In this document: positions 16,340 through 59,714 of the stretch, piece after piece
Position numbering within the stretch: the stretch's first letter is position 1
How the letters are laid out: each line of letters starts with the position of its first letter
Assembly: GCF_963921235.1 (NCBI RefSeq)
Contig: NC_086108.1
Coordinates: 15,996,001 to 16,060,000, forward strand
DNA: 64,000 bases
Source: Mobula hypostoma
Taxonomy: Eukaryota
Reading direction: 5' to 3'
Translations under genes and position numbers: made by a program
The notes under the pieces: model-generated
What the model was told of the DNA's origin: nothing
The model's input: the letters and a program-made list of their open reading frames with translations, nothing else
The model's database searches: none

Positions 16340-16757
16340 GAGGCACCTTTTGAGAAGGAATAGGAGGGAAGATGTGTGGTCGGAGTGACTGAGGTATGGA
16401 CATGCAGGTTTGCACTCCATTTTGGTTCTTGTTGGTAATCATGGGAATAGGCGGTGTGATTTTTTAAGGTCCCAGAGACAGTGGAACATGTGATCATGGT
16501 GTGCGGCAAATATTCATTAAAACGTGAAAAGCTATTTAGGCAATTATTGGGTAGAACCTGGATGCTTAGTTTGCAGAATATACTGGAACGTGAGACATGG
16601 GCGGTTAAGACGTGTAATGCCTCCTTTCATACCCCATTACAGTAGGTGGCGGTAAAGCACCTTCTTCTGTATCTTTTTTGACGGCGGTTGGCATCCAGCT
16701 TAATAGTGCATTACCGCCGCAAAGCACCTTCTTGAGACGCCATCGGCACAAAAGAGG
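16340..16757 (+). mobile_element. I-clade (Nimb-like) LINE 3' end with a second tail inserted in the opposite orientation
   Basis: Remnant LRYGHAGLHS and PETVEHVIMVCGKY zinc-knuckle-like C-terminus, with 3' motif CAGTAGGTGGCGGTAAAGCAC. The inverted tail at 16667-16720 is flanked by AAAGCACCTTCTT direct repeats. Confidence 0.65.
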
Positions 16758-17050
16758 ATGACGTGGCTGCTGTCAGAAGGCCATCAAGGAAGTCGGTGGG
16801 TGGGACTATGGTTCCCGCCACTAAATGGCTGCTGCACGGGCGGCGCGAATCTACTTACGGGTGGTTACGAGCAGCGGTCGAAGCTGGTAGCTGCTGGCGT
16901 GTGTCGGGAGGCGAACCAGGCACAAGGCCGGGGCAACTCGATCGCGCCATGAACGGTCACGTGGGCAACTTCCGGCCTTTGGTGACCTCGCCGTAAAATG
17001 GCGGCGGCGGGCTGCGCTGGAGCTGCTGCGATACGCCTAAGATGGAGCAG
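16750..17050. promoter_or_regulatory. CpG-island-like bidirectional housekeeping promoter
   Basis: The most CpG-dense non-repeat segment in the window. E-box CACGTG 16958-16963, ETS/GABP ACTTCCGG 16968-16975, pyrimidine run CCTTT 16976-16980 and YY1 AAAATGGCGGC 16995-17005. Splice donors point outward on both strands. Confidence 0.8.
16859..16950 (-). other. Candidate first exon of a divergent minus-strand transcript
   Basis: Consensus donor GTAAGT at 16858-16853 on the minus strand, inside the CpG island. An ATG at 16950 is open to the donor but hits a stop in the candidate next exon. The start coordinate is a guess. Confidence 0.55.
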
Positions 17051-17859
17051 GTTTTCCTTCTCAAAAGACGGCACACAATTGGCAGGGTTCCCACCTCTCG
17101 CTATCCTGGGGTTGTAGCTGCCATTCTGCCACCAACCGACTGCGAGTATAGAATTTAGAGGGAGTCGGATCTAGAGATGGTGGGATGCCCTCATTTCTCT
17201 CCTGGAGCCTTGTTGCCCCAGAACTTTTGAAATCCCCACTCCCCAAAAATGGGGAAAATTGAGAATGGGCAAAATCCATTGTGGGTGTTTTGGTCCAGCT
17301 TGGCATTTGATATGCTGAAAGATAGCTTAGTAATTTGAAATCGCATGTCCCAACGAATCGATGATTGGTTGCAAAACATGAAGAAAGTTTAGGGAGTTTG
17401 CTGATGTTTGCGATTTATGGTGCGCTGCAGTGATTACGAAGAGGCCGCCGTGGACCGCCGAAAGGTAAGAAGAGGGGACAGTAATTGAAACACGTTATTA
17501 TGCGTCGGGACCGATGAGTTTCCCCGACTGTGTAAAATCGGAGAACACATTCATGTTCACCGTGCACTGGCGCTGCTGTCTCACAGCTCCATCAAGCCAG
17601 GGTCAATCCTTCCTGCTAGTGCTAGCTATCTCGAGAATGTGTATGTATTCCCTGTGATTGTTGGGTATCCACTGGTGTCCTCCATCATTAAGGACCCCAT
17701 CACCCAGAGAAGGCTGTGCAGACTGAGCCTGTTTCTATGACTGACCGAGTGAGTAGTTAATTTATTTATTTATTTAGATGCCGTGCGGAATAGGCACTTT
17801 GAGCCACGCCGCCCAGCAACCCTCGTTTTAACTCCAGACTAGTCACAGGACGATTTACA

Positions 17860-18500
17860 ATGCAATGTTGGCATTTATTTCTAGAGGAATAGCGTATAGG
17901 AGCATGGATGTGATGTTGAGGCTCTATAAGGCGCTGGTAAGACCTCACTTGGAGTACTGTGGGCAGTTTTGATCTCCTTATTTAAGAAAGGATGTGCTGA
18001 TGTTGGAGAGGGTACAGAGAAGATTCACTAGAATGATTCCGGGAATGAGAGGGTTAACATGAGGAACGTTTGTCCGCTCTTGGACTGTATTCCTTGGAGT
18101 TTAGAAGAATGAGGGGGGACCTCATAGAAACATTTTGAAAGTTGAAAGGCATGGACAGAGTGGATGTGGTAAAGTTGTTTCCCATGATGGGGGAGTCTAG
18201 TACGAGAGGGGATGACTTAAGGATTGAAGGGCGCCCATTCAGAACAGAAATGCGAAGAAATATTTTTAGTCAGAGGGTGGTGAATCTATGGAATTTGTTG
18301 CCATGGGCAGCAGTGGAGGCTGTCATTGGGTGTATTTAAGGCAGAGATTGATAGGCAGCTGAGTGGTCAGGGCATCAAAGGTTATGGTGAGAAGGCGGAG
18401 GAGTGGGACTAAATGGGAGAATGGATCAGCTCATGATAAAATGGCGGAGCAGACTCGATGGGCCGAATGGCCGACTTCTGCTCCTTTGTCTTACAGTCTT
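17860..18500 (+). mobile_element. CR1 LINE 3' fragment
   Basis: LYKALVRPHLEYCGQF and FSQRVVNLWNLLP motifs, followed by a CR1 3' UTR. Confidence 0.88.
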
Positions 18501-19509
18501 ATGATCAATCCGTACGCATTTGGATTGTGTGAGGAAACCCACAAAGTCATGGGGAGAACGTACAAACTTACAGGAATGGTAGGAATTGAACCCCAGTCTC
18601 AGGTACTGAAAAGCTTTGTGTTCAATAGGCTTTAATATACTGATATATTCAATGCAAAGATAGATTTTGGGATGTTGAGCGATGCAGAGTTGATGTGAGA
18701 CTATACTGTTCAATCCTTGCAGCTTTTTGCTGTTTGATCCTACCTAATAGACCATAAGATATAGGAGCAGAATTAGGCCATCCTGTCTGCTCTGCCATTT
18801 CATCATTGCTGATACAATTTTACTCTCAACCCAAATCTTCTGCCTTCACCCCAAATTCCTTCATGCCCTGACCAGTCAAGAATCTATCAATCAATTATTG
18901 CTGTTTACTTTGCATACTTTATGCATATAGGCATTTAATTGCACCCAGGTGTAAGTTTAAATTTATTTAAATTTAAGGGTTGATATTGATTGAGTTGCAT
19001 GATAGTTTGAGGCTGAATATCCTGCTTTTTCCTCAATTCAATGCCCCTCCTTTTTATCGTTAAACATTCTAACTTTACCAAGAAGACCTTCAATCTGAAA
19101 TACTTTTTCTCTTTCCACAGTTACTTTCTGCTGTGTTTTCCAGAATTTTATTATACTGTACCAGATTTCTAGAATCTTCATTTTCATCTCAAAGAGTCAC
19201 AAGATGATTTCTCATCACAGTTGCTTTAAATGATGAGGATTTACACATTCTTTAGTGAAACTGATAATCCTGTATGTACTTTGCAGCAGGAGTGATTATA
19301 GGAGTTTTGGCTAATCTATTTTACCCACTCTGGAAGGCTGTGCCATTGCTGAGAAGTAAAACCTGTCTGAATATTTGAGAGTGGGGATCATTGCTTTGAA
19401 GTTACTCCTTATAAACTTGGCTGTAGGAACAGGAGCAGAACAGACCTGAATGAATTTCTGTTCCTCTGCCAGTGCAAGATGTCATCAGTTTATGGCATAT
19501 GGCATTAGA

Positions 19510-19970
19510 CATACAGTGCAGAATCAGGCTCTTTGGCATTCTGGGCCATGCAATTCAAGTTGTCCATCTGAGCTAGTCCTGTTTACCTGCATTTGGCAAT
19601 TATCCCTCAAATCTTTCCTAAATGTATACCTGTCCAAATGTCTTTGAAGTGTTGTTTTACCTTCCACAGCCACTTGCCCTAGCAGCTCATTCCCTCTACC
19701 TCCCACCTTCTGTTTGAAAAGTTTGCCCCTTGAGCTGCTGATAAACCTTGCCATTCTTGGCTTATATACCTCGTATAAGATCACCTCTCAGTCTACTTCG
19801 CTTCACAAAATAAAGTCTTAGCTTGGCCGGCATCTCAAATTGTTGCACTACCCATTCCTCAAGTCCTGACATCATCTTTGTAAATCTACACTCTTCCCAG
19901 TTTAATGGCATTGTTTCTGTAGCGTGGTGACCAAATGTCTTGTATGACTGCAACATCCCATTTTCCATAC
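19510..19970 (-). mobile_element. Old CR1 LINE 3' fragment
   Basis: SRLRGDLI motif in ORF 19762..19968, with a degenerate CR1 3' UTR. Confidence 0.7.
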
Positions 19971-20425
19971 TCAGGACTCAATTCTCTGGTGAGAGCCTGC
20001 ACGTCAAAAGTTGTCTTCATCACCCTCTCAGCCTGTGACTGTTTCATCAGAAATCTTTAATAACCTGCCTCAGGGTGTGTCACTGGCAGAGAAACCAGTT
20101 ACAAGATTTGGCAGTGGTCATTTAAAACTGAGGTGTAGGAGCTTCTTGCAGGTAATGAATCTCTGGAGTTTTTTATTTGGGAGGGCTATGGAGGCAATAT
20201 CATTGGGAATATTTAAAAAGCAATTGGAAACATTTTTTTTGAAAGGTCAGGGAAGTAAGTGCCATGGGGAACTAATGCAACAGAGATGAGGCTCAAGGCA
20301 GATTAGCCACGATCATATCTGCAGGCCATGCCTGCTGTCCAAGGGCACGTTTTTGCATTCTGTTTAGTTGTTTGGCTGATATGTTTGGGATAAGTATCAA
20401 AGCCAGCAATGTTATTATACAACAG

Positions 20426-20499
20426 CAGGATGCAGGTGATCATTTAGTATTTTTCTGATTTCAGCCAAGGGCTCAAAGTAAATGCTCTGGTGTATCCTG
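20426..20499 (+). pseudogene. SNORD105: SNORD105-like box C/D snoRNA copy with degenerate boxes
   Basis: Terminal stem CAGGATGCA/TGTATCCTG. Box C is mutated (GTGATCA 20436-20442) and box D is mutated (CTGG 20487-20490). Guide TCAAAGTAAATGCT has one G:U pair with 18S. Confidence 0.75.
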
Positions 20500-23193
20500 G
20501 AGCCCATTCTAACATGTGCTCACAATAACTAAGTGCAGTGGGCCTATATAAGCCGATGCATGCCTTTCTCCTTGTTCCTTTGCTCATTGAGGTTCCAAAT
20601 AGAATTCCTGAAGTTAATTTGGGATTATGTTCAAAATCAGTTTCAGATTACTTCATTAACAATATGTAAAAAGATTCCTTTCGAAGCCTAGAAATTTGTT
20701 TTGCTAAATATCTGGCCATAGTGATGCTCACGACCCACATTTGATTCATTTTCATAAAATACAGTTTGGGGCTCTTGGATTATCCCCTTTCTGTGTCTCC
20801 TGGATGCAAATCAATTTAATTTCTTTCTCATTTGACTAGATAGATTATAATAGACTTTGGGCTCAAAGAATGGGAAGTTGTTAAAAGAAGCACCACTACT
20901 TTAACTGTGGTGTTTTATACTGCTGGAGCTTCGCTTGACAGTCTCTTCAGAGTCTGCAGCACATTGGGCATCTCTGGTACAAGGAGGCAGAGAGCCATTT
21001 GCAATATCATTGAGCCAGCAGAGAAGGACTCAAGGTGGCTCTGGATGAAGCAAGTCCATGGGGATCTGCAGCACATGCTACCTGAGCACAAGTTGTGGCT
21101 TGATCAACCACGGCTGGGTCACCCAATGACCCCAGGTTACATCATTGATTATGTGTTCAGAGCATCTTGAGATGTATTTTTCGAAAGAAAATGCTCTGAT
21201 TAAATGCAGGCTGTCTCAGGACAATGAGTTAGCTCAATGAGCACCAGGTCTTTCTGCTCTGAATACTTCAAACTATTGAAATCATAGCTTGTGTAAGCTA
21301 TTGACTGTTTTACTATGGCACAAGCACTCAGTTACACCAGAATTCTTTTATGTCAGCATGGTGGGAACACATCCACCATGGTTACTTTTATAAGACCCAT
21401 CAACTTTGCACTGAGGGACTGTTAATTGGAAACTGCATTGTGAACAGCAGTTTTCTAAAATGAAAGCAATATAGTTTTTCCTGGTTAAGTGCTTGGGAGT
21501 AGTGTAAAGGGACAAACATTGCATCTCTTGCAGTTGGTTACAAAGAGGTCATGAGAATGAAATTTGGAAGGTAAATGCAACAGCACCCGGGGAAGTGATC
21601 CCTTCATATAGCAAAAGAAGAAAGAGGTATTTTGATGGTGGCATTACTTTGAAAATAAATGAAAATTTGAGCGATGATCCACTGGTAGTGGAGGCCGGTT
21701 AGTTGAAGACAGTGTCCTGGCCTCACTGTTAATAGTTTAATCCAAGGAGAGCCCAAGATCCCTTCTATTCTCCGCTGGAGTTTTAGCCACTATCCCTCCA
21801 CCACTACTGTCTTCTGACTGTTACTGTACATTGAACGGTGTTTGCTTTAACTCCACTCACTTTCTCTAAATGCTATGGAAGCCTTTTGGGTTCAGGAATG
21901 CCTATTATTGTTGGGCTTATGGAACATTATTTCCTTGTCCCATACACTGTCTTTGTCCAGTCAATTAATAACAGTGGAAGCGCCTTCCCGTTCTTTGCTT
22001 TGAGCTTGCATCTATATATAATTCTGGTTTCATCATGTGCTCCATCTTGAACTCTTGTTTATCTTATTTCCGTTATGGACAAGTGAGCAGCATTGACCAT
22101 GTACTCTCCACTTCCCATCGCTGTACTCATTTTATGCTTCCAGTTTTTATGCCTTTGTCTTGTTAGCTCTTATAATGTCACTTTTGTCATTTTTACTCTC
22201 TTAAAGTAGAAAGGCCCATACTGCTTGGAGTCTATTCCGACTTGCTTCGCTGTAATATGTTCCCTTATTTTTTTGTACCCATTGATTCCGTCCTGATTCT
22301 CCTGGCACTTGCCAAGGATAAATTTACAGTGGGCCAATTAATCTAACAAACTATTTTGGGATGTGGCAATAAACCAGAGCACCTGGGAGAATACATACCA
22401 TAGATGGAATGAGAGGTCAGGTTTAAGCCTGGGTTACTGTAAGTGTGAGTCAGCAGCTCTGATATGCATCAGGTTTGGCATTTTTCTTCAACTCAGGTTT
22501 CCCCTCTTTAGTTGCCAGCACTCCTGACTGCTCCACTCTCACTCCAGCACCATATTGTGATGCTCGTTTCCCATCTACATCTGGTGACTGGTCTGTTGTT
22601 TATGCACTTGTCCATTTCTTGGCTTCTGACCATACCTTTAAATTAATATTTAATTTACCTGACTTCCAACCCACCATAGAACTTACCTTTTTTGCTTTTC
22701 CCCCCATTTTTTAAATTCTGCAGCATTGTCTTTTAATCTTTGATTTTTGTTTTTCAGATCTCATTAAAGGATTAAGATTTTTGCTCCAACCAGTTGTTAT
22801 AAATGTTGAGTTTTTGCAGGATTGCGTCTTATTAAGGAAGAAACATACTGTTCTGCACAATGGAAATCAGTGTAGAGCTCTGACTAATTTATTTAGTCCT
22901 TGAAATGAGGAACAAATGCCAATTTTTAATAAAACTGCTGAGCCTGGGTTGCTCAGTTTACTCACAAACCAGGAGGAGGCATAAAACAGATTTGTGTGAT
23001 TTTTTTTAAGTCTAAATATTGTGGAAGTTTTGCAGTTAGCTGTAAATTGCAAGTCAGCCTTCTGCATTAGGTAATGATTTCTGTTGTGGTTAGTAGAAGG
23101 ACATCTTCACAAGACAGACTGAATGCATTTGTCATCAGTACTTTATCATGAGCTCTTAATCTTGTGGGGTGGCCCTCTTGTGAAGAGGGGAAA

Positions 23194-23261
23194 GGACACA
23201 AATGATGATTTTTGTTTGCAGATTCTACCGTGAGGCTCAAAGTAAACGCTCTGATGTGTCC
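23194..23261 (+). ncRNA. SNORD105: Box C/D snoRNA, SNORD105 (U105) family, guide for 18S rRNA Um799-equivalent
   Basis: Perfect 7-bp terminal stem GGACACA/TGTGTCC. Box C ATGATGA 23202-23208 and box D CTGA 23251-23254. The 14-nt guide TCAAAGTAAACGCT is complementary to conserved 18S AGCGUUUACUUUGA. Confidence 0.93.
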
Positions 23262-23928
23262 AACAGATCAACGTGTGTTTTGTTTTTGATAAAACAAATG
23301 GGGCTTTATACTATCGGGTGCAACTTGTTTTCTGTGCACAATAATTATTCATTGAATATTTTCTGAACTTCTTAGATTTTTTATTATATTGCTCTTGGAG
23401 TTATAGCCAAATTATCAGCTTGCATATTTCTGTTGTCACAACTGGGGTCATTTGTGATGGACATAGAAACATCAGTGAAGCATAGTTTTTCTTTATATTC
23501 TATTACTCTGGGGGGCAAGCTGTGCTTAAAAAGTTTATTTTCCACATAATGGTTAGTTTATTCTATATATGCAAAGTTCAATGAATGTTTAAAAATAACT
23601 GTCCAAACTCAGGTGTGACTGGTTTTTAATTATTTATTGTTATTAAGGCCTGTCGTGTGAAATGAAGTCTATCAGTATATGTTGATTATGGGCTCTTTGT
23701 ATGTTCCAGACACTCATGAATTCTGAAGTTTGGACAAGGTTTTTGCATTTGCTTGGAGGGATGGCTTGTAGAAGACCATGGAAGTGACTTCAAAAACAGT
23801 AGGTTTTTTTTTGTAGTGAGAGCCTTCAGGATACTGAGACTGTATTTCGCGCAATTTGTTTTTAAAAGAATATTAGGTGTGAGGAAGAATCACTACGATT
23901 AGGTTGCACATCTCTGCATACTTTACTT

Positions 23929-25415
23929 AGAAACATAGAAACATAGAAAATAGGTGCAGGAGTAGGCCATTCGGCCCTTCGAGCCTGCACCGCCATTTAT
24001 TATGATCATGGCTGATCATCCAACTCAGAACCCAGCCTTCCCTCCATACCCCCTGACCCCTGTAGCCACAAGGGCCATATCTAACTTCCTTTTAAACATA
24101 GCTAATGAACTGGCCTCAACAGTTTGCTGTGGCAGAGAATTCCACAGATTCACCACTCTCTGTGTGAAGAAGTTTTTCCTAACCTCGGTCCTAAAAGGCT
24201 TCCCCTCTATCCTCAAACTGTGACCCCTCGTTCTAGACCTCCCCAACATCGGGAACAATCTTCCCGCATCTAGCCTGTCCAATCCCTTTAGGATCTTATA
24301 CGTTTCAATCAGATCCCCCCTCAATCTTCTAAATTCCAACGAGTACAAGCCCAGTTCATCCAGTCTTTCTTCATATGAAAGACCTGCCATCCCAGGAATC
24401 AATCTGGTGAACCTTCTTTGTACTCCCTCTATGGCAAAGATGTCTTTCCTCAGATTAGGGGACCAAAACTGCACACAATACTCCAGGTGTGGTCTCACCA
24501 AGGCCTTGTACAACTGCAGTAGTACCTCCCTGCTCCTGTACTCGAATCCTCTCGCTATAAATGCCAGCATACCGTTCGCCTTTTTCACCGCCTGCTGTAC
24601 CTGCATGCCCACTTTCAATGACTGGTGTATAATGACACCCAGGTCTCGTTGCACCTCCCCTTTTCCTAATCGGCCACCATTCAGATAATAATCTGTTTTC
24701 CTATTTTTGCCACCAAAGTGGATAACTTCACATTTATCCACATTAAATTGCATCTGCCATGAGTTTGCCCACTCACCCAACCTATCCAAGTCACCCTGCA
24801 TCCTCTTAGCATCCTCCTCACTGCTAACACTGCCACCCAGCTTTGTGTCATCCGCAAACTTGGAGATGCTGCATTTAATTCCCTCATCCAAGTCATTAAT
24901 ATATATTGTAAACAACTGGGGTCCCAGCACTGAGCCTTGCGGTACCCCACTAGTCACCGCCTGCCATTCTGAAAAGGTCCCGTTTATTCCCACTCTTTGC
25001 TTCCTGTCTGCTAACCAATTCTCCACCCACACCAATACCTTACCCCCAATACCGTGTGCTTTAAGTTTGCACACTAATCTCCTATGTGGGACCTTGTCAA
25101 AAGCCTTTTGAAAATCCAAATATACCACATCCACTGGTTCTCCCCTATCCACTCTACTAGTTACATCCTCAAAAAATTCTATGAGATTCGTCAGACATGA
25201 TTTTCCTTTCACAAATCCATGCTGACTTTGTCCGATCATTTCACCGCTTTCCAAATGTGCTGTTATCACATCCTTGATAACTGACTCCAGCAGTTTCCCC
25301 ACCACTGACGTTAGGCTAACCGGCCTATAATTCCCCGGTTTCTCTCTCCCTCCTTTTTTAAAAAGTGGGGTTACATTAGCCACCCTCCAATCCTCAGGAA
25401 CTAGTCCAGAATCTA
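23929..25415 (-). mobile_element. Young 5'-truncated CR1 LINE with an uninterrupted RT reading frame
   Basis: ORF 24025..25383 (452 aa) has [32 protein letters not shown] and FADD with no stops. Ends in a (TTTCTATG)n tail. Confidence 0.96.
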
Positions 25416-25974
25416 ATCTAATCTACTTCTCATGGGTCAGCTGGAAATCTTGTTGCTGATTTTGAGAAGCCCTTTTAACTGATGCCAGGGGTTACAGAGC
25501 CATAACTGCTAAATGGAACTAGGTTGAGATGTAGGGATTTTTATAGTAACTTGCTGTATATTTATTTACATTGTACTGCAAAACAATGTATTTCATGACA
25601 TGTCAGTGATAATAAACCTAATAATCATTCCGATTAATAGAGTGTCGGTAAAAAAACTTTTTGACATTTCCACCCTGAAAGAAGGACTGATTATCTACCC
25701 TATCTATACCTCAATTTTTTTTATACTTCTGTCTCAATCATAAGGATAAGTAGCACGGAAACAGGCCCTTTAGCCCAATCCATCCATGTTGACTGAGTTG
25801 TCTGCCTTTGGCTCATAATCCCCTAAATCTTCCCTATCCATGTACTGATTTTTAGATTGTATGCACCACTACTAGTTTTAGCAGCTCATTCCAATTATCC
25901 TCCACCCTCAGAGTGAAAAATGTGCCCCTCAGGCCCCTGTAGTATCTCTCTCTTTTGGGGCCCCTGTGATTTTC

Positions 25975-27325
25975 ATAATTGCCTTGGATGACGATGTGGG
26001 AGGGTGTGTTAGTAATTCTGCAGATGACATGAACGTTGTTGTGGATAGTGTGGAGAGTCGTCGTAGGTTGCAGCAGGATAGCAACAAGATTCAGAGTTGG
26101 CCTGAGAAGTGACAGATGGGGTTCAACCCAGTAAAAAGTGAAGTGATCCATTTTGGAAGGTTGAGTTTTAAGGCAGAATACAGGGTTAATGTCAAGATTC
26201 CTGGCAGTATAGAGGAACAGAAGGATCTTGGGGTCCACATCCCTCGGTTGATGTGAAGGTGATAGGGTTGTTAACAAGGCGTATGATGTGTTGGTTTTCA
26301 TTAGTCGGGGGCTTGCGTTCCAGTCCCATGAGATAATTTTGCTGCTGTATAGCTGGTTAAACTGCACTTGGAATATTGCTCAGTTCTGGTCGTCTCATTA
26401 TACAAAGGATGTGGAAGTTTTAGAGAGGGTGCAGAGGAGATTTTACCAGGATGCTGTCTGAACCTGTCTTAGGAATAAAAGAGGTTGAGAGAGCTAGGGC
26501 TCTTCTCTTTTGGAGTGGAAGGATCAGAAGTGTACAAAATGATAAAAAGGCATAGATTGGAGTGGATAGACAGACATTTTCCCCTAGTCAGAAATGACTA
26601 ATACATGGGGACATAACTTGAAGGTGATTGCAGGAAAGTAGAGGAGGGATGTCAGGTGAAATGGTGGTCGAGGCAAATACAGTGGTTTGGCAGTTGTCCG
26701 GTATCGGACCGCTAAGCACTCCAGCGTGTGGTGAAAACTGCCCAGTGGATTATCCGCACCCAATTGCAAACCATTGAGAACATCTACCATAAATGCTGCC
26801 TGGGCAGGGTGAAAAGCATTATCAAGGACGCATCTCACCCTAACCATGGACTTTTTACTCTCCTCCCATCCGGTAGGTGCTACAGGAGCCTCCGCTCCCG
26901 CACCGGCAGGCACAAGAAGAGATTCTTCCCTGAGGCTGTGACACTGCTGAACCTCACATCACAGCACTAAGCAGTATTGCATCCATACTGTACCGTCTCA
27001 TTACTTCTATATTTGTGTGCTGTAGCACTTACTTTTTATTCGCAGTTATTTTGTAAATAACACTATTCTTTGCATTTCCGGTCAGATGCTAACTGCATTT
27101 CATTGGCTTTGTATCTGTACTCGGCACAATGACAATAAAGTTGAATCGAATGGAATCTAATCTAATCTACATTAGGGGCATATAAGAAACTTAGACACGT
27201 GGATGATAGGAAAATGGGGGGCCTTGTAGGAGGGAAGGGTTAGATTGATCTTGGAGTAAGTTAAAAGGTTGGCACAACATTGTGGACCAAAGGCCTGTAC
27301 TTGCTGTAATGTCCTATGTTCTATA
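25975..27325 (+). mobile_element. Decayed CR1 with a nested Rex1/Babar 3' fragment (about 26658-27170)
   Basis: CR1 RT remnants on both sides. ORF 26728..26970 has KDASHPNHGLFTLLPSGRCYRS and the insert ends in an (AATCT)n tail. Confidence 0.8.
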
Positions 27326-27582
27326 GCTTTGCATTTAAAGTGCACCAATAAATCTGGAAGCAAAATATTTTTCTAGAAAGTAAAGCACTACTAGATACAT
27401 AAGAGGCCTTTTTTTTAAAAAAAAAAGCTCTTAGATAGGCACATGGGTGATGGAAAAATGGCTGTGACAAATAGATTGATAGAGTAGGTTAAAGAGTCGG
27501 CACGACCTGGTGAGCTAGGGCCGTGTACTGTGCTGTACTGTTCCAAAATCTGTGTACGCCTTGCTGTAAATTTGAGCGGAGT

Positions 27583-27664
27583 GATGCAAATGATGAGTAT
27601 TGGGAAATGTGATGTCAATTGTCTTCAAGGCAGGTGATCTTCAAAGTAAACACTCTGATGCATC
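27583..27664 (+). ncRNA. SNORD105: Box C/D snoRNA, SNORD105 family (variant guide)
   Basis: Stem GATGCA/TGCATC. Box C ATGATGA 27590-27596 and box D CTGA 27655-27658. Guide TTCAAAGTAAACACT has one mismatch to 18S, 3 nt upstream of box D. Confidence 0.88.
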
Positions 27665-28296
27665 CTGTTTATGGTTTGGAATCTGATTACATGGCGGTGA
27701 TTTTGGCATATCATGTTTGTCTTGGCTCTGATAGATATGCATGCAGTATATGATAAATTGCTACTATTGTCACTAATAATTTTTTTTTGTTGACAGGTCA
27801 AAGGCTTTAAACCTCTCGCCTTTTCAATATGTACGTGAGTGCTTAATTTAGTGTTATTTTGTTTTAAAATGGCTTTCCTCCATGGTGGAGTTTTGGCATA
27901 CCAAGTTTTTAAGACAGGTGTTTGTTTAATGACCAAAAAGGGAGAGTTATTTCTTGTAGCATAAGCAGAGAGTCTGGGAGGAGATTGATATCTTTTGCTG
28001 TGATGCAAAAGAATTCAGTTTATTTTCTGAGGCACCAACGTTATTGTTCTAGACTGGCCCATTCAACACATGGATGGTTGAGGTTGAGCTGAAACAAGTG
28101 CCATTAATTCCAGGTCACTCTGGTATGGGTAATACGTGCAGACTTTGACATTCCCCATTATCTCACAATGGGACAGAAAGCGTGTACTGGTCTATAGGTA
28201 GTGATTGTGAGAGGCTTGCTATGAATCCTGATTGATTTAACTCCCATTCAATTCTCCAATACCTGCAAACTTGAAAGTGAGCTTGATCAGCCATTT

Positions 28297-29570
28297 CATA
28301 GAAACATAGAAAACCTACAACCCAATACAGGCCCTTCGGCCCAAGATGCTGTGCGGAGCATGTAATTATTTTAGGAATTACCTAGGGTTACCCATAGCTC
28401 TATTTTCCTAAGCTCCATGTACCTATCCATGAGTCTCTTAAAAGACTATCGTATCCACCTCCACCACCATCACCGGCAGTCCATTCTGTGTGTGTGTGTG
28501 TAAAAAAGAAAAAGCAAACAAATAACAACAGCTTAACCCTGACATCTCCTCTGTACCTACTTCCAAGCACCTAAAAACTGTGCCCTTTCATGCTAGCCAT
28601 TTCAGCCCTGGGAAAAAGCCTCTGACTATCCACATGATCAATGCCTCTCATCATCTTGTACACCTCTATCAGATCACCTCTCATCCTCTGTTGCTCCAAG
28701 AAAAAGAGGCCGAGTTCACTCAACCTATTCCCATAAGGCATGCTCCTCAATCCAGGCAACATCCTTGTAAACCTCCTCTGCGCCCTTTCTATGGTTTGCA
28801 CATCCTTCCTGTAGTGAGGTGGCCAGAAATAAGCACAATACTCCAAGTGGGGTCTGACCAGGGTCCTATAAAGCTGTAATGTTACCTCTCAGCTCTTAAA
28901 CTCAATTCCACGATTGATGAAGGCCAACGTACTCCGTATGCCTTCTTAAGCACACAGTCAACCTGCGCAGCAGCCGAGTGTCCTATGGACTCGGACCCAA
29001 AGATCCCTCTGATCCTCCACACTGCCAAGAGTCTTACCATTAATATTATATTCTTCCATCATATTTGACCTACCAATATGAACCACCTCACACTTTCTGG
29101 GTTGAACTCCCACCTGCCATTTCTCAGCATGGATTTGCATCTTATTGATGTCCCGCTGTAACCTCTTGACATCCCTCCACTTCTTCATCCAGGTCATTAA
29201 TAAAAATCACAAAGAGAAGGGGTCCCAGAACAGATCCCTGAGGCACGCCACTGGTCACCTGTCTACAACCACTCATTGCCTTCTGTGGGCAAGCCAATTC
29301 TGGATCCACAAAGCAAGGTCCCCTTGGATCCCATGCCTCCTTACTTTCTCAATAATCCTTGCATGGGGTATCTTATCAAATGCCTTGCTGAAATCCATAT
29401 ACACCACATCTTCTGCTCTACCTTCATCAATGTGTTTAGTCACATCCTGAAAAAAAAAATTCAATCAGGCTCGTAAGGCATGACCTGCCTTTGACAAAGC
29501 CATGCTGACTATTTCTAATCATATTATGCCTCTCCGAATGTTCATAAATCCTGCCTCTCAGGATCTTCTA
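28297..29570 (-). mobile_element. CR1 LINE fragment
   Basis: YMDFSKAFDKIPH and RGDLIEVYKMMRG motifs. Same family as 50882-54640. Confidence 0.9.
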
Positions 29571-30052
29571 CAAAACCTTAAAGCTCAAAACTCAATTAAG
29601 CAACAGTTGATCCTGCAGCTATCTGTTCAGTGGATCTACTTATCAGTGGTGGTGTTTGTATGTGATGTCTGTCCAGGAGAGCTTTCTCTCGCCCTCAGAA
29701 GTCAGGCAGATGTCACAGACAGGTTTTGGTTGCAGTGGATGACCATGGCATCTTTTGTGCTTTGTCACACCCTTATTTCTGCAGTGTTACAGTTTTGTGT
29801 TCCTGGCAGTTGGATCTCACTGTACACCTCAGGCTGGCTGTAATACATGAGTGTTTTAGTTTTCTAAAACTACAGGTTGATGTCATGAAAAATGATTTTG
29901 CAGTCCTACAATAAAATTTTGTTAATTTTAACCATTGGCAACGATTTTCATGAGGTATTGTGTTGAGACTTATCACCAGAAGGAAGTGTATATTAGCTTG
30001 CTGGCTATTATGTTTGAGGTGATTACCATGGGCAGAATTGCTAGTAATGAAT

Positions 30053-30128
30053 AACAGGATGCAAGTGATGACATACTTTTTTGCTGATTTTGGTGAGGCT
30101 CAAAGTAAACGCTCTGATGCATTCTGTT
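30053..30128 (+). ncRNA. SNORD105: Box C/D snoRNA, SNORD105 family
   Basis: 11-bp stem AACAGGATGCA/TGCATTCTGTT with one G:U. Box C GTGATGA 30065-30071, D' CTGA 30084-30087 and box D CTGA 30114-30117. Perfect guide TCAAAGTAAACGCT. Confidence 0.93.
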
Positions 30129-30719
30129 TTATTGTGTGTACATGCCCTTAATATCTGTGAAGATCTAAACACTAATTTTCTGATGAATATCATCACTAAT
30201 CTTGGGCAGCTCTTTTCATGGTGATTTAACCATGCAGTTTGTTTGTACCCCCGAGTTCACTGTGCATATAGTGAGACTAATGCATAGGTAAGCTATTTCT
30301 TTCAGACAGAGGCTGTGATGTGAGAAGGGGCTGGATCAATGGGCTTTGTCAGTGGATCCTTCAGTGCGGAGGTTTCCAGACCTATAGTCACAAGGAACAA
30401 GAAAAATGCAGTTTCCATACAGCAGCGATATTCAGGACGAAATCCAGTTACTGGATAATTTGATCAGTTGAAGGTGGCGATAGATAAATATTTGAATTGA
30501 GGGTATGACAAACTGTCACAGGAGAGGAATGGAAGTCAGCTTGAATCAGCGCTTATCTTTATGAATAGGCAGGCTTAAAGCTACTCTTATTTTCTTATGT
30601 TCAGAGACAACTGAAGACCTGATTGCTGATTTTTTTTTCAGCAGTGCGGTCTAATTGATGGTGGAGGCCTCTTGCAGGTCCTGAAGTGCGAGATTTAATG
30701 AAAGAGCTTTTGTGGGATC

Positions 30720-33500
30720 TGGTAAGTTTCTTCTGTCTTTTGTCATCTGTTAATGTATACTTAGAACACTGAGAATGATTCAGTTATGTTCTTTGTGTGA
30801 GATGTGGGAATTCTGAGTGACCTCTGGTCCCCTGGATAACCACAGATGCACTGTCAGGAGATGGAAGGGAAGTGGGCAGCCAGTACAGAGTACTCCTCTG
30901 GCCACTCCATAAATAACAAGTATACCATTCTGGATATCTGTGAGGGAGACGGTCTCTGACACTGAGCCAGGTGCTATGGCTCAGAATGGAAGTGGGGGAG
31001 GTGGGGGGGTGGTTTAGAAGAGGACGGCAGTAGTAAAAGGGGATTCCATTGTTTGAGGAGTAGGCGTGAGATTGTGTCACCCAGATAATAAGTTGCCTGC
31101 CGGGTGCCAGGGTAAGGGATGTCTTGGATCGAGCCCACGACATTCTAAAGGGGGAGAGGGAACAGCTAGAAGTCTTGCTATATATTGGCACGAATGTCAT
31201 GGGTAGGAAAGGTGAGATATTCTTGAAGAGAGATTGTGGAGAGCTAGGTGGAAAGCTGAAAAGCAGGATCTCTAGGGTAGTAATATCATTAACAGTGAGG
31301 GTAAGAATATGATGATTTGGCAGATGAATGCGTGACTGTAGGGGGCAGGGTTTCAAGCTGTGTTGGAGAGGGTTTTAAACTAATTTGGCCTAGGAGATGG
31401 TAACTGGAGAATAGGGCTGGGTTTACAAGCAGAGGCAGTGGTAGTGAACATGTCAGGAAGGACAGGCAGTTAATAGGGCAAAATTTCAGTCAGTGGGATG
31501 AGCTGCAGTTTAAAAGGGGAACAAAATCGAAAGGAGTGATGGATACATGATTGAAAGTGTTGTGTTTCAATGCACACAATATCCAGAATAGTGTAGATGA
31601 TCTTGTACAGTTAAAGATTGATAAGTTTGATGTTGTGCACATCATTAAGTTGTGGCTGAAAGCAGATCACAGTTGGGAGCTTAACCTCCAAGGATATCAA
31701 AAGGACAGGCAGGTAGGCAGAGGGGGTGGCGTGGCTCTGTTGGTAAAATACGAAATCAAATCATTAGAAGGTGATGTAGGTTTGGAAGATGTAGAATCCT
31801 TGTGGGTAGAGCCGAGAAACTGCAAGGGTAAAAAGACCCTGGTGGGAGTTGTATACATGTCTTCAAACAGTAGCCAGGATGTGGGCTACAAATTACAACA
31901 GGAGTTAGAAAAGGCATGTCAAAAAGATAATGTTATGATAGTCATTTGGGGGGGCGGGGTGAGATTCAGTATGCAGGTAGATTGGGGAAAATCGGGTTGG
32001 TGTTGGATCCCAAGAGGGAGAATTTGTAGAATACCTATGAGATGGCTTTTTAGAACAGCTTGCAGTTGAGACCACTTGGGGATCAGCTATTCTGAAGTGC
32101 ATGTTATGTAATAAACCAAATTTGATTAAAGGAAAGGAACCCTTAGGAGGCAGTGATCGTAATGATAGAATTCACCCTGCAATTTGGGAGGGATGTAAAA
32201 GTCAGATGTATCAATATTACAGTGGAGTAAAGGAAATTACAGGGGCAGGAGAGAGAGAGAGAGAGGCCAAAGTTGATTAGAAGAGGCCACTTGCAGGGAT
32301 GACAGCAGAGCAGCAGTGGCTGGAGTTTCTGAGAGCATTTTGGAAGGCACAGTATAGATACATCCCAAACAAGTAGTGGTATTCTAAAGGCAGGATGAAG
32401 TTACTGTGGCTGACAAGGGAAGTCAAAGCCAACACAAAAGCAAAAGAGGAGGCCTAAAATAGAGCAAAAATTACTCAGAAGTTAGAGGTTTGGGAATCTA
32501 AAGCCAGCAGAAGGCAACCAAATAAAAGCCATGGGTAAGAAAATGAAATGTGAAGATAAGCTAGCTAATAATATCAAAGAAAATGCTAACATATTTTCCA
32601 GATATATAAAGAGTAAAAGGGCTGAGAATAAATATTGGACTACTGGAAAATGAAACTGGAGAGGTAGAAATTGTAGACAAACTAAAAGAATTTTGCATCA
32701 GTCTTCACTATGGATGACACTAGCAGATGCCAGAAGTTCAAGAATATCAGGGCAGAAGTGAGTGCAGTTATTACAAGGAAGAAGGTGCTTGGGAAACTGA
32801 AAATTCTGAATATTGATAAGTCAGCTGAACCAAATGGACTACGCCCCGGAGTTCTGAAACAGGTAGTTGCAGAGATTGTGGAGGCATTAACAATGACCTT
32901 TCAAGAATTGATTCTGGCATAGTTCCATAGAACTGGAAAATTTAAAATTTCACTCCACTCTTCAAGAATTGAGGGAGGCAGAAGAAAAGAAATTAAAGGC
33001 CAGTTAGCCCGACTTCAGTGGTTTGGAGTCTAGTGTTAAGGATGTGATTTCAGGGTACTTGGAGTCACATGATAAAACAGGCCAAGTCAGCATGGTTTCC
33101 TTAAGGGAAAATCTTCACTGATAAATCTGTTGGAATTTGAGGAAATAAGAAGAATGATGGATCTCATTGAAACCTATAGAATTTTGAAAGGCCGAGATAG
33201 TGGATGTGGAGAGATGTTTCCTGCGGTGAGGGAGTCTAGAATCAGGGCTCACCCTCAATATAGAAGGATGTCCATTTAGATGAGGAATTTCTAGCCAGAG
33301 GCTATGATTGTGTGAAATTCATTGCCACAGGTGGCTGTGGAGGCCAAGTCACTGGGTATATTTAAAGAGGTTGATAGGTTCTTGATTAGCCTGGGCATGA
33401 AAGGTTAGAGGGAGTTGGCAGGAGAATGGGGTTGAGGGGGAAATGGTGGAGCAGAGTTGATGGGCTGAATGGTCTGATTCTACTACGTCTTGTGGTCTTG
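30720..33500 (+). mobile_element. Long decayed CR1 LINE with ORF1 (esterase-like), APE and RT remnants
   Basis: ORF1-like CLPGARVRDVLDRAHDILKGE...IGTN. APE-like LCFNAHNI and RGGGVALLVK. RT linker and 3' end with large internal deletions. Confidence 0.85.
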
Positions 33501-36500
33501 TGTTGGGTCACATTGAAGGTAGAATCCACATTTTCATTCACCTGTGGTCTGGGCAGTTTATGAATGTTTATTAATTCCAATATGCTACATTTTTTATAAA
33601 CAACACCATCCAGGATTTGTGGGCAGAAATATCTAAGTTACAAAACTTATGTGCGTAAAGTTTTGGCACAGCTTTTGAAAATTTAATCTATATTGTCTCA
33701 TTTGTATCTGTATCTGAAGAGTTAAAAAGTTTGGCGGGGGGGGGAGAATCCCACAATTCTCCACTCCAGCTCCATCAGATGCACCCATCCAGCATGAGGT
33801 AGTTTGCTTACTTTAAATATAGTTTGTTTTTCCCATACTTTCTCCAAATCAACCTTACTGTTCCAAACATTATTTTTCCTCATCTTATTTCCCTATCACT
33901 TCTCCCTTTAGTCTTACTATATTCAGTCTGGCTCTTACTGGAGTTATTCACATGACTTCCTACGAGTTCTGACAAAGGCTTTGACCGACAACATATTATC
34001 TGTGTTTCTTTGCAATAGTTGTTGCCTGATGTGCCAAATGCTTCCTGAATTTTGGTCTTTACTTTGTACATCCTATCAATTTCTTTTTCCCTAGGTAGAA
34101 ATATACATTGCCTGCAAGTGAAGTGTCTTCTCAGGAATTGCTGTCCTGTCGAGATGTCAAGCAACGATGGTTCGATTTTACCCTGACTCAGAATGATACT
34201 ATTTAAGTTATCCTTCCTGCTATTTTAAATAAATAAACAATCTACTGTGGATCCTCTTTACCCCCCCTCATTTATCAATTTTAACATTATCTGTTGAACA
34301 CTATGCTGATCTTTGTAAGTGGTATTTATTTTTTGCTGCTGAATAAGTAGTTTTCTGTAAAATGAAATTGTCTTGGACCAGTGTAATCTAAGACACCAGA
34401 ATCGGCTGTTGAATGTTGGAGGGTGATGACAAATCACTGAGGCACTAAGGCAGTGGCACTCATTGCCATCGATGGGCTCCAAACTTCATGATTTGCTTTT
34501 ATTGCCTATCAATATCTACTTTGCGTTGTTGACAGCCCTGCTGAAACCCATTACCTTCCTTCTGTGGATCTGAGTTTTATGATGAGCAGTAATCAAATTA
34601 GGAACATCTTTCTGGTGTGTACTAAAGTGCAAGCTCAAAATAAGATTTTGTTCACTCAGCTCCTTGTGCTGCCTTGGCTTTCATTACAGCAGCTATAGTA
34701 TATGGAGAACTGACAAGTATGGGTTCCCTTGGTTGCCCTTGATTGAATCAAAGCCCATGAAGAGGTCTGAGCTCTGAAGGGAATCTTGTAGAACTAGCAA
34801 GCAAAGCTTGCGCCACCAGGAAGCCTGTAATGTCGCCAAATTAATGGTTATTCATTTCTTAAAGAAAATAAAATCTGCATTTGCTCAATATGACATGAGT
34901 GACTCCAAATCTGCACTACTGTAGTTATCTCTTGTCTATCCTTCGAGTTGCCTGAGCAAGCCAAGTGGTTGCATCAAAGTCACTGAGTAAAAGTAAAAAG
35001 CAGCTAAACTATCTAGCATTTGATTTGGGGATCTTATTTAGGCAAGGTAAAGACACTGCTGGCTCAGTCAATTTTGCTGTTTCACAAACTGCTAGTACCT
35101 AAACAGAGTCCCATTATTGTGTAGAGCAATGGCCTAACAGTTATGCACACAGAATCGTTCCTGCGAAGCAGTGTGCCAGATTCCATCACTAATCTTGGGC
35201 AGGTCTTGTCACATTAGAGATGATGTTGCAGAGGCACATGTGGGAGAAAAAGGATCTGATTCTAAACCCTATGACTTTTAGTTGTACCAAGCAATGCTAG
35301 TTCCATTTTACCCTGGCTTGGGTGATCCTGTTGAAGTTGCAGTTTATACTTTGGGTCTTCTCTGTCCTCTCTTAATTAAGTATTTAAAAATTAATCTGAT
35401 AACATGTCACATCACTGTTTCCCAGCTCATAACATTATTTATCATTGTTAAATGACACTTGCAGCTAGTATTTGGGAATTTTAATGTCTATCACCACTGG
35501 CTATGTTCTGAAGATAATTGTCAGGATCTTTGGCAGCTAAGTAAATGAATAATATAATAGTATAATATCCCTAATTCATTTTCACCAATCTACATGTAGG
35601 TGAATCATCATTATCAATGTCAAGACACAGCCCTTGTTGAAACTGCTCTCACTTTATCTGGGACATCATTGTATTAGGATGAACCCAAATCTTGCAGGTC
35701 AAAAGTGCATTAATGATCTGAAGTGCATAGATTTTGGCCTTTCTCAAAAAATAATCGAATGGTTTAGTATTGGAGGGACTTATCGATGCATGAAGAAATA
35801 GGATTTACCGTGATAATCAAATTGCCCCTTCGCCAATCACCCACAAAGCCATCAATTCTGTCATCCAAATCAATGATACATAAGAAGCAGTCCCAACATT
35901 TACCCCTGCAGAACATCACTAATCACTGGTATCCACCCAGAAAATCCCTTTAATCCTATGTATTACTTATACCAGTCAGCCAATTTTCTAGCAATGCTGG
36001 TATCTTTCCTGTAATACTATGGGATGAATTGGTGACAATTATCATGAGTTGTGATGGTGGTGATGAGTCACCATGTAAAAGTGAGATCGATCATGTGATT
36101 GAGTGATACTGCAGCAACAACCTTGTGCTCAGTGTCAACAAAACAAAGAATCATCCCTGACTTCATAAGGGGAACTCAGGAACAGGTATTTTCCTACAAC
36201 CAACAGTTCTTGAAATGACCAGCATAACCCTAACTCAGCAACTCTATGACCACATTTTGCACTTGTTATTGTTTCTTTGCACTAATATTTTGATTTGCAA
36301 ACTTTTTCTCTTCATGGTCTTGTACAATTTACTCTAAGGTTTGTATGTTAACTGAATTGGCTGTAGGTGTGTCATTCTACTGCAAACAAGTTTTGCACTG
36401 CAATTGTACCTCACCTTATTTATGCATATGACAATGAGCTCCTCTTTACTTGAGAATCATGGAAAATTAACTCAAGTTCAGCATCAACATTAAACTTGGC

Positions 36501-41300: not shown

Positions 41301-42160
41301 AACATTTATTTTATGGTGTTACTATTTTGCTTTAGCAGTCATATACATAATCCTTTGCACAGTTCTAGCCAATGAAATATTGAAAAGCCCACTCACTGAT
41401 TGACAGGATTCAGATCTGAGGTGCTGTTTCTGTGACTTGAAGTATCATTTTCCACTACATATTCAAAGAGCAGAATATTATGGTTAACAGAGTTTTACCA
41501 TGACACATTAGTCTGCAAAGTCATCCTACTCAAGTAGGAGCATTAATATAGGCTACACACAGCTCTTATACTGTTTTTGAATAAAGAGCAGAGACCAGAG
41601 GATTGCATCATTAAAAGTAACTGGTAGCCACTTCATTGCTACAGGTGGTAGTTACAGACATGATGGCTGAAAGGGAAAGCTAACGGAGAAACAGCAAGCC
41701 CCTCATTTCACCACCTGCCTGGGAATGCAGATGGTAGGAGAGGTGCCTCTCACAGTTGAACAGTGAAATAAGACTCCCTTCCCGGCTGGACAGAGGTTTT
41801 GCCACTCATGGTCAGATGGACACCTTTCCTAATCTCAGACAGCTGAACAAATGGCAGCAAACTGGACAAAATAAAGATCAATCAGTCAGTGATCAGTTCT
41901 GCTGCTATTTAAGTCTAGTGGAGCTGGAAGGTAATGGATAAAAGGTGCAAAGTATATGAGACTTGCAGGGAACTCTCAATTCATAGGCAAGAAATGGTGT
42001 TCTATATGTGACTTTAGATTCAGTGAGCCATTGCTTGGGCCTTGACACCACGTGTTAGAACAGAGAACATAGAAAATACAGAACAGTACAGGCCCTTCAG
42101 CTCGCAATGTTGTGTCGACCTTTTAACCTACTACTTTCAGTCTAACCCTTCTCTATTAAA

Positions 42161-43310
42161 TGGCCCACACGGTAGGCTTATTCAGAAAGTCAGAAGAAAT
42201 GGGATCCAAGGAAGTTTGGCCAGGTGGATTCAGAATTGGCTTGCCTGCAGAAGGCAGAGGGTCGTGGTGGAGGGAGTATATTCGGATTTGAGGGTTGTGA
42301 CTAGTGGTGTCCCACAAGGATCGGTTCTGGGACCTCTACTTTTCGTGATTTTTATTAACGACCTGGATGTTGGAGTAGAAGGGTGGGTTGGCAAGTTTGC
42401 AGACAACACAAAGGTTGTGGTGTTGTAGATAGTGTTGAGGATTGTCAAATATTGCAGAGAGACATTGATAGGATGCAGAAGTGGGCTGAGAAGTGGCAGA
42501 TGGAGTTCAACCCAGAGAAGTGTGAGGTGGTACACTTTGGAAGTACAAACTCCAAGGCAGAGTACAAAGTAAATGGCAGGATACTTGGTAGTGTGGAGGA
42601 GCAGAGGGATCTGGGGGTACATGTCCACAGATCCCTGAAAGTTGCCTCACAGGTAGATAGGGTAGTTAAGAAAGCTTATGGGGTGTTAGCTTTCATCAGT
42701 CAAGGGATAGAGTTTAAGAGTCACGAGGTAATGATGCAGCTGTATAAAACTCTGGTTAGGCCACACTTGGAGTACCGTGTCCAGTTCTGGTTGCCCCACT
42801 ATAGGAAGGATGTGGAAGCTTTGGAAAGGGTATAGAGGAGATTTACCAGGATGCTGCCTGGTTTAGAGAGTATGGATTATGATCAGAGATTAAGGAAGCT
42901 AGGGCTTTACTCTCTGGAGAGAAGAAGGATGAGAGGAGACATGATAGAGGTATACAAGATATTAAGAGGAATAGATATAGTGTATAGCCAGCACCTCTTC
43001 CCCAGGGCACCACTGCTCAATACAAGGGGACATGGCTTTAAGGTAAGGGGTGGGAAGTTCAAGGGGGATATTAGAGGAAGGTTTTTTACTCAGAGAGTGG
43101 TTGGTGCGTGGAATACACTGCCTGAGTCAGTGGTGGAGGCAGATACACTAGTGAAATTTAAGAGACTACTATACAGATATATGGAGGAATTTAAGGTGGC
43201 GGGTTATATGGGAGGCAAGGTTTGAGGGTCGGCACAACAATGTGGGCCGAAGGGCCTGTACTGTGCTGTACTATTCTATGTTCTTTACTGTGCTGTACTG
43301 TTCTATGTTC
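42161..43310 (+). mobile_element. 5'-truncated CR1 LINE nested in the 3' UTR of the minus-strand CR1
   Basis: [29 protein letters not shown] and FFTQRVV motifs. Duplicated TACTGTGCTGTACTnTTCTATGTTCT tail. Confidence 0.9.
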
Positions 43311-46300: not shown

Positions 46301-46403
46301 ATTCTCTTTTCAAGACCTCAGCCCTTACCCTACCAATGTTACTTCCCTACATCCAGCTATTCACCCTGCCCATTTAGAACACTATGGACTCGATCTGAGA
46401 CAC

Positions 46404-59570: not shown

Positions 59571-59714
59571 ATCCCTGAACAAAGCGACCCTTTAGGAGAG
59601 TTAATTAAACAGCTCGCACACGTGTGTTTGATTGTCCCGAGGCGATGCAAAAAACTGGGACGTTGGGTGGTGTTTGTTACGCTAGGTTAGCCTAGTGAGC
59701 AACACCCCTATAGA

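What the first reader, a model, noticed from the sequence alone, without database searches (positions are those of the whole stretch)
16976..34245. SNORD105 copies appear to sit in a non-coding host gene rather than PPAN
Known: human SNORD105/105B lie in introns of protein-coding PPAN. Seen: no PPAN/Brix-like reading frame here. Instead there is a CpG promoter with a short pyrimidine run (possible 5'TOP start), several 34-50 nt exon candidates with good splice signals placed between the snoRNAs, and a terminal exon with overlapping AATAAA. Inference: a GAS5/SNHG-style non-coding host, implying a host-gene switch or a different ancestral arrangement for this snoRNA.
Basis: inference. Interest (0 to 1): 0.78.

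Follow-up and report, generated by a model that had tools for sequence, protein, structure and literature searches.

The report
Ray non-coding gene hosts SNORD105
In this ray, the small guide RNA SNORD105, which human and zebrafish keep inside the protein gene PPAN, sits as four copies in the introns of a spliced gene with no reading frame over 41 codons that starts back-to-back with the antiviral gene RNase L, a likely host-gene switch of a kind already known for other guide RNAs.

Summary
Largely confirmed. Four SNORD105/U105-type box C/D units lie on the + strand. Two pair perfectly (14 bp) with this genome's 18S rRNA and predict methylation of U762 (human U799); one has a guide mismatch; one is decayed. 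Contigs of runs guessed to be RNA splice five exons around them (exon 1 ends 17464; 23710-23798; 27797-27830; 30642/5-30721; from 34095). The longest ATG frame is 41 codons, and exon-1 homologues in two other organisms carry frameshifts. Intact PPAN lies on another contig with no SNORD105 in its introns, and no PPAN remnant was found here. Zebrafish keeps SNORD105 in ppan, as human does. The 5'TOP start is untested. The direction of the switch is open; the region is a duplication paralogue of PPAN's region, so a decayed PPAN twin is not excluded. Host turnover is common in vertebrates, so this is a new case of a known kind. The scan had not noted SNORD105 before, but had noted similar non-coding hosts on other DNA.

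The parts
16500..17250 (.). CpG island; promoter region shared by the host (+) and RNASEL (-), with E-box 16958, ETS-type CTTCCGG 16969 and YY1-type motif 16995 (motif names recalled)
   Evidence: both genes' first exons start here
16859..16963 (-). Exon 1 of RNASEL, spliced over about 41 kb to the ankyrin/kinase exon upstream of the window
   Evidence: X2 loose end at 16854 equals RNASEL exon 2; a processed copy on C1 joins the same two exons and reaches 16963; domains
16969..17464 (+). Host exon 1 (start inferred, donor shown); holds only short ORFs
   Evidence: donor joint; homologues in organisms B, C, E
20436..20490 (+). SNORD105 copy 1, likely decayed (box C GTGATCA, box D CTGG, G-U pair beside the target), intron 1
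23202..23254 (+). SNORD105 copy 2, canonical boxes, 7-bp terminal stem, perfect 14-nt guide, intron 1
23710..23798 (+). Host exon 2 (89 nt), sometimes skipped
27590..27658 (+). SNORD105 copy 3, canonical boxes, 6-bp stem, one A-C mismatch in the guide, intron 2
27797..27830 (+). Host exon 3 (34 nt; 3' end inferred)
   Evidence: acceptor joint; contigs begin at 27801; length arithmetic of X4 record 25
30065..30117 (+). SNORD105 copy 4, canonical boxes, 11-bp stem (G-U counted), perfect 14-nt guide, best Rfam match, intron 3
30642..30721 (+). Host exon 4 (80 or 77 nt; tandem CAGCAG acceptor)
   Evidence: side 79 in X2, 76 in X3 and X4
34095..35215 (+). Host terminal exon; AATAAA at 34228/34232 and 34867; 3' end not fixed
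   Evidence: pieces end 34886, 34888, 35197, 35215
41384..49696 (-). Last two coding exons of the convergent RGSL1-like gene (41384-41455, 49625-49696)

Best explanation
Four SNORD105-type box C/D units lie in three introns of a spliced five-exon gene that has no ATG reading frame over 41 codons and begins back-to-back with RNASEL, while the intact PPAN gene on another contig carries none; the intact copies are likely cut out of the spliced introns and are predicted to guide 2'-O-methylation of 18S rRNA U762. Shown: the copies, their pairing with the genome's own 18S, the exon joints, the short frames, the absence from PPAN, the shared promoter region. Inferred from established snoRNA biology: polymerase II transcribes the host from the CpG island; each intron lariat is debranched and trimmed to the protein-bound C/D core; fibrillarin methylates the base paired to the fifth guide nucleotide before box D. 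The spliced RNA is probably a by-product removed by nonsense-mediated decay, as its first stop (17117) lies far upstream of four junctions. Copies 2 and 4 probably do the work, copy 3 is weaker, copy 1 is dead, leaving one live unit per intron. Most likely origin (about 0.45 of the origin odds): the snoRNA moved from PPAN into a broadly expressed divergent transcript of the RNASEL promoter in the cartilaginous-fish lineage, multiplied there long ago, and the PPAN copy was lost.
For: Guide pairing: 14 bp for copies 2 and 4 with SSU rRNA found by Rfam in this genome; the target falls at position 762, the number given for Xenopus SNORD105 (PMC6984369 supplement rows). Genome-wide, 3 of 47 pattern matches are exact and all 3 are here; the other 44 have one mismatch against 38 for the control pattern, none on C81. 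PPAN: 11 coding exons at C81:6358160-6396618; Rfam to E 10 on 60 kb around it gives 14 matches, none a snoRNA; a model built from the four copies gives at best 9.4 bits, partial, without box D, beyond PPAN's last exon. Non-coding: longest frame 41 codons against a shuffled median of about 63. In organism E an 11-nt deletion breaks ORFs A and B and about 22 nt are missing in ORF C; in organism C ORF A loses its stop, an 8-nt insertion breaks ORF B and 88 nt are replaced by 49; changed versus silent codons in ORF A are 6:3, 3:2 and 3:1. The exon-1 donor is kept in organisms C and E. Exon 1 has no second, spliced copy in the genome. Zebrafish SNORD105 is intronic in ppan (PMC7668251 supplement row), human in PPAN intron 3 (PMC8649375 passage). 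Copy flanks share no similarity (0 of 12 comparisons clearly above shuffles; best 12 of 200), so the copies are old.
Against: The runs are only guessed to be RNA and are contigs: no strand, start, end or level, and no small-RNA or methylation data. No copy reaches Rfam's gathering score, and the genome-wide Rfam searches scored only 58 and 56 candidates of several hundred thousand. Copies 2 and 4 lie 455 and 524 nt from the next shown acceptor, farther than the 65-100 nt I recall as optimal. The codon counts use only the difference rows shown (40 of 78; 40 of 236). Whether organisms B, C and E keep SNORD105 in this host was not seen. PPAN exon 1 was not located; the sensitive scans reach 13 kb above exon 2. 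In Xenopus SNORD52 also guides this site, so the copies need not be essential. The origin step has no outgroup.
Confidence: 0.86

Rival explanations
1. Origin rival: the host is the decayed whole-genome-duplication twin of PPAN. After the early vertebrate duplications one copy kept the protein and the other kept the snoRNA in rays, while bony vertebrates kept both in one copy.
For: Three close ANGPTL-type paralogues (68-77% identical over 91-92 aa; best PDB matches ANGPTL2 and ANGPTL6) lie on C81, C67 and C50; the C81 gene is head-to-head 68 kb from PPAN and the C50 gene is 4.76 Mb from this host. Landing that near one of two paralogues by chance is about 0.6%, on C50 at all 3.4% (window chosen after the fact). 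Human 1q, 6p, 9q and 19p are paralogous regions (PMC1578592 passages); the human positions of RNASEL, RABGAP1L, ANGPTL1 and PPAN are recalled.
Against: No PPAN remnant by HMM or sensitive blastn; exon sizes do not match; the host is not next to the ANGPTL paralogue. It needs SNORD105 in PPAN before the duplications, yet the site is listed as methylated in human and Xenopus only, not in fly, yeast, Arabidopsis or Dictyostelium (PMC11014333 supplement row).
Confidence: 0.25
2. Origin rival: the non-coding host is the ancestral jawed-vertebrate home, and SNORD105 moved into PPAN on the bony-vertebrate stem.
For: Four old copies with unrelated flanks; exon 1 kept in four organisms; with two lineages the direction is formally open.
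Against: No outgroup support; no SNORD105 host at the RNASEL promoter is known to me in bony vertebrates (recalled; searches listed none).
Confidence: 0.22
3. The copies are unexpressed or non-functional passengers in an ordinary divergent promoter transcript, and another guide (such as SNORD52) or none marks U762.
For: Copy 1 is decayed and copy 3 mismatched; sub-threshold Rfam scores; SNORD52 doubles for this site in Xenopus.
Against: Copies 2 and 4 keep both boxes, stems and an exact 14-nt guide while flanks have lost all likeness; all four are on the sense strand in introns; they are the only exact copies in the genome.
Confidence: 0.07
4. The host encodes a micropeptide or is the 5' part of a protein-coding gene.
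For: ORF A (39 codons) starts in a strong context at 16998 (sequence).
Against: Frameshifts or stop loss in organisms C and E and mostly changed codons; no Pfam match; terminal exon with AATAAA and a convergent neighbour.
Confidence: 0.04

Closest known systems
Human SNORD105/SNORD105B in PPAN; zebrafish SNORD105 in ppan (Rfam RF00584, RF01173)
   Same: Box C/D unit with the same box-D guide to 18S U799/U762
   Different: Host is non-coding and on a different contig from PPAN; four copies against two in human and one listed in zebrafish and Xenopus
Non-coding snoRNA host genes GAS5, SNHG1/UHG and the SNHG class (names recalled; chicken gas5-like host in PMC2653536 passages)
   Same: Spliced, short poorly conserved exons, no conserved ORF, C/D snoRNAs in introns, CpG promoter
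   Different: Carries one snoRNA family only; long repeat-rich introns (49% masked); exon 1 about 490 nt; head-to-head with RNASEL; 5'TOP start not shown; not an orthologue of a named SNHG
Vertebrate snoRNA host-gene turnover (PMC13736004 abstract and sections 10-11; 'constrained drift', PMC3511168 abstract)
   Same: Same snoRNA, different host and host class between lineages
   Different: The 20 species named for the heatmap of PMC13736004 include no cartilaginous fish, and its text names neither SNORD105, PPAN nor shark

Membership tests
Box C/D guide snoRNA, SNORD105 family | Box C (RUGAUGA), box D (CUGA) and terminal stem | tested here: met
   Met by 3 of 4 copies (2, 3, 4); copy 1 fails both boxes
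Box C/D guide snoRNA, SNORD105 family | Guide before box D pairing with 18S so that the fifth nucleotide meets U799 (human numbering) | tested here: met
   14 bp in copies 2 and 4; target U762 of this genome's 18S; same site as zebrafish and Xenopus SNORD105
Box C/D guide snoRNA, SNORD105 family | Rfam gathering score | tested here: not met
   Best 44.5 of 49 bits (RF01173, E 2e-5 genome-wide); 28.3 of 45 (RF00584). Read as divergence from the model; the name rests on the guide and best-family match
Box C/D guide snoRNA, SNORD105 family | Mature RNA accumulates and the site is methylated | not testable with these tools
   No small-RNA or RiboMeth data available
Non-coding snoRNA host gene (GAS5/SNHG type) | Spliced transcript with snoRNAs in sense-strand introns | tested here: met
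   one of the four consecutive joints inferred
Non-coding snoRNA host gene (GAS5/SNHG type) | No conserved reading frame | tested here: met
Non-coding snoRNA host gene (GAS5/SNHG type) | One snoRNA per intron (recalled rule) | tested here: inconclusive
   Intron 1 holds copies 1 and 2, but copy 1 is decayed; an unseen exon between them is not excluded
Non-coding snoRNA host gene (GAS5/SNHG type) | 5'TOP/TCT start (recalled feature) | not testable with these tools
   Only C plus four pyrimidines at 16969 and 16976; contigs show no start
Non-coding snoRNA host gene (GAS5/SNHG type) | Spliced RNA is a nonsense-mediated decay target | not testable with these tools
   Predicted from the early stop; PMC4233243 seen as search listing only
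PPAN (Brix domain) gene or remnant | Similarity to PPAN protein or DNA | tested here: not met

The most novel reading that the evidence does not exclude
The host is the fossil second copy of PPAN from the early vertebrate genome duplications: it lost the protein, kept and multiplied SNORD105, and its housekeeping promoter now also drives RNASEL, so rays and bony vertebrates resolved one duplicated snoRNA-host pair in opposite ways.
Probability: 0.25. Interest if true: 0.68.

Novelty: new member of a known kind. Interest (0 to 1): 0.42.

Why it matters
It adds an apparently undescribed non-coding snoRNA host and shows that the SNORD105-PPAN pairing, kept from zebrafish to human, does not hold in a ray; it also dates this guide to at least the jawed-vertebrate ancestor. 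The case is clean enough (one guide, one protein host, one new host) to test how non-coding hosts arise: by a snoRNA landing in a divergent promoter transcript, or by decay of a duplicated protein gene. The promoter shared with RNASEL would tie an rRNA-modifying guide to an rRNA-cleaving antiviral enzyme; that link may be accidental.

Tried and rejected
Rfam at gathering score: 0 matches in the window and in 140 kb around PPAN. The 7 other genome-wide Rfam candidates (4, 3) have 3-5 mismatches in the 14-nt guide and were rejected. A 12-nt core match with one mismatch in a PPAN intron (C81:6388211) has no box C or D and is near chance by my arithmetic. Further C/D snoRNAs in the host: 3 other candidates with a stem, two inside a repeat and one overlapping copy 4, none convincing; the box pair at 19230-19264 is too short. 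Duplicated exons or flanks among the copies: none. PPAN remnant: none. SNORD81, as a marker for GAS5 nearby: no match, uninformative. No listed run is on record as RNA; organism D gave nothing on exon 1, no evidence either way. A genome-wide search with my own RNA model was not available, so faint copies elsewhere are not excluded. Literature: nine searches listed no paper on SNORD105 in cartilaginous fish; no SNORD105 passage in the main texts of PMC3349704, PMC2653536 (U105 and PPAN searched), PMC11880993 or PMC13736004. Supplements of the last two were not searched and 5 of 17 files of PMC7668251 were not searched; they may list hosts in further species. PMC109273 is not held, so the 5'TOP definition is recalled.

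Full report
The snoRNAs. Rfam at gathering score finds nothing in the window. At relaxed threshold snoU105B matches four places on the + strand: about 20445-20500, 23192-23264, 27580-27668 and 30055-30127, at 22.0, 26.9, 26.1 and 44.5 bits. The shared 18-nt guide+box D motif occurs four times against 0.02 expected. I fetched this genome's rDNA and paired each guide with it. Copies 2 and 4 form 14 bp; the fifth nucleotide before box D meets U762 of the 18S (position from the Rfam start). Xenopus SNORD105 is listed for U762, equal to human U799 (PMC6984369 supplement rows). Copy 3 has one A-C mismatch. Copy 1 has damaged C and D boxes and a G-U pair next to the target.

The host. One search listed 22 runs, all guessed to be RNA. 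Contigs of four runs from two organisms, laid on 16600-35600, show GT..AG joints 17464>23710 and 23798>27797 in 3 of 4 runs and 30721>34095 in 4 of 4. One contig of X4 links exon 1 to the last exon with 201 nt between, which equals 89+34+77 nt plus the joint offsets. The joint 27830>30642/5 was not in the 15 rows shown and is inferred. A second lay shows exon 1 joined to exon 2 and also directly to exon 3. Intronic contigs have depths of about 3-26 against 26-309 for spliced ones, but contig depth is a poor measure. The exon 1 region has no second full copy in the genome.

Coding potential. The longest ATG frame is 41 codons, below the median of about 63 for 1000 shuffles. Exon-1 homologues at roughly 90% identity or a little less in organisms C and E end at the same donor, yet carry an 11-nt deletion, 8-nt and 2-nt insertions, a 4-nt deletion, about 22 nt missing before the donor, and loss of the ORF A stop. 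Changed codons outnumber silent ones in ORF A in all three comparisons (shown rows only). Organism D gave no cover.

PPAN. A Brix search of the genome gives 2 matches; the one on C81 matches human PPAN in the PDB at E 3e-27. Its closest named proteins come from devil rays and other batoids, so the genome is a ray's. PPAN has 11 mapped coding exons over 38 kb; exon 1 was not located. Its introns hold no snoRNA by Rfam to E 10, by motif and box scans or by a model of the four copies. Genome-wide, the only exact guide+box D matches are the three in this window. The host holds no PPAN remnant.

Neighbours. Upstream on the - strand lies RNASEL. Its first exon is 16859-16963: the X2 contig leaves the window at that donor into RNASEL exon 2, and a processed copy on C1 joins the same exons. 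The two genes thus start within about 15 nt of each other if the pyrimidine runs at 16969-16976 are the host's start, which is untested. Downstream on the - strand an RGSL1-like gene ends near 41384. No outside + strand transcript is needed.

What is known. Human SNORD105 lies in PPAN intron 3 (PMC8649375, passages). Zebrafish SNORD105 is intronic in ppan (PMC7668251, supplement row). For Xenopus a position but no host is given. The site is listed as methylated in human and Xenopus, not in fly, yeast, Arabidopsis or Dictyostelium (PMC11014333, supplement row). Host turnover is common: exact host retention is called uncommon across vertebrates (PMC13736004, abstract and sections 10-11), and snoRNAs may occupy any broadly expressed site (PMC3511168, abstract). 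Nine searches listed nothing on this case. The scan's own notes held no SNORD105 finding but several non-coding hosts, one in this genome read as a decayed RPS8 copy; that note prompted the twin test below and was not checked.

Origin. With two lineages and no outgroup the direction is open. A move into a divergent transcript of a CpG promoter fits known snoRNA mobility and the lack of any PPAN trace; I give it about 0.45. The decayed-twin reading gains from paralogy: ANGPTL-type paralogues sit beside PPAN on C81 and 4.76 Mb from the host on C50, a coincidence of about 0.6-3% by genome share (post hoc), and 1q and 19p are known paralogous regions (PMC1578592, passages). Against it stand the missing remnant, the missing micro-synteny and no sign that the guide predates the duplications; about 0.25. 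An ancestral non-coding host gets about 0.22.

Verdict. It works like a GAS5/SNHG host and meets the two testable defining features (sense intronic snoRNAs in a spliced RNA, no conserved frame); 5'TOP and decay are untested. It is a new member of a known kind, with a host switch of a common type; interest 0.42, higher if the twin origin is borne out.

Noticed in passing
window 16859-16963 (-) and L053-L055: An RNASEL gene (ankyrin, kinase, Ribonuc_2-5A domains) has its first exon in the window's CpG island, about 41 kb from exon 2.
   Followed up: yes
L075 (G000:C1:51.67 Mb) 1270-1605: A processed copy of the RNASEL 5' end (exon 1 joined to exon 2, 88-92% identical).
   Followed up: partly
window 41384-49696 (-) and L059-L067: RGSL1-like gene, convergent with the host and on the same strand as RNASEL; I recall the two being tail-to-tail in human, which would imply a local inversion.
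   Followed up: partly
window about 56350-60900: LTR retroelement with near-identical terminal repeats and a 761-codon frame with SCAN, zinc knuckle and integrase zinc-binding domains.
   Followed up: partly
window 24025-25422 (-): A 465-codon open LINE reverse-transcriptase-like frame (named by eye) in host intron 2, antisense to the host.
   Followed up: no
G000:C50:8673-147394: rDNA array at the start of the window's own contig: 8 target matches, mostly 19-21 kb apart, plus one on C55.
   Followed up: partly
G000:C81:6345498-6472224: PPAN keeps its human-like neighbours: a GPCR exon downstream, fused in protein model P0001 (PPAN-P2RY11 read-through, name recalled), and an ANGPTL-type gene head-to-head upstream.
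   Followed up: partly
window 30639-30644 and 23710-23798: Both acceptors of a tandem CAGCAG are used, and exon 2 can be skipped, which would put copies 1-3 in one intron.
   Followed up: partly
L048:74-157: An exon resembling the RABGAP1L C-terminus (recognised from memory, no Pfam hit) about 100 kb upstream of the window.
   Followed up: no
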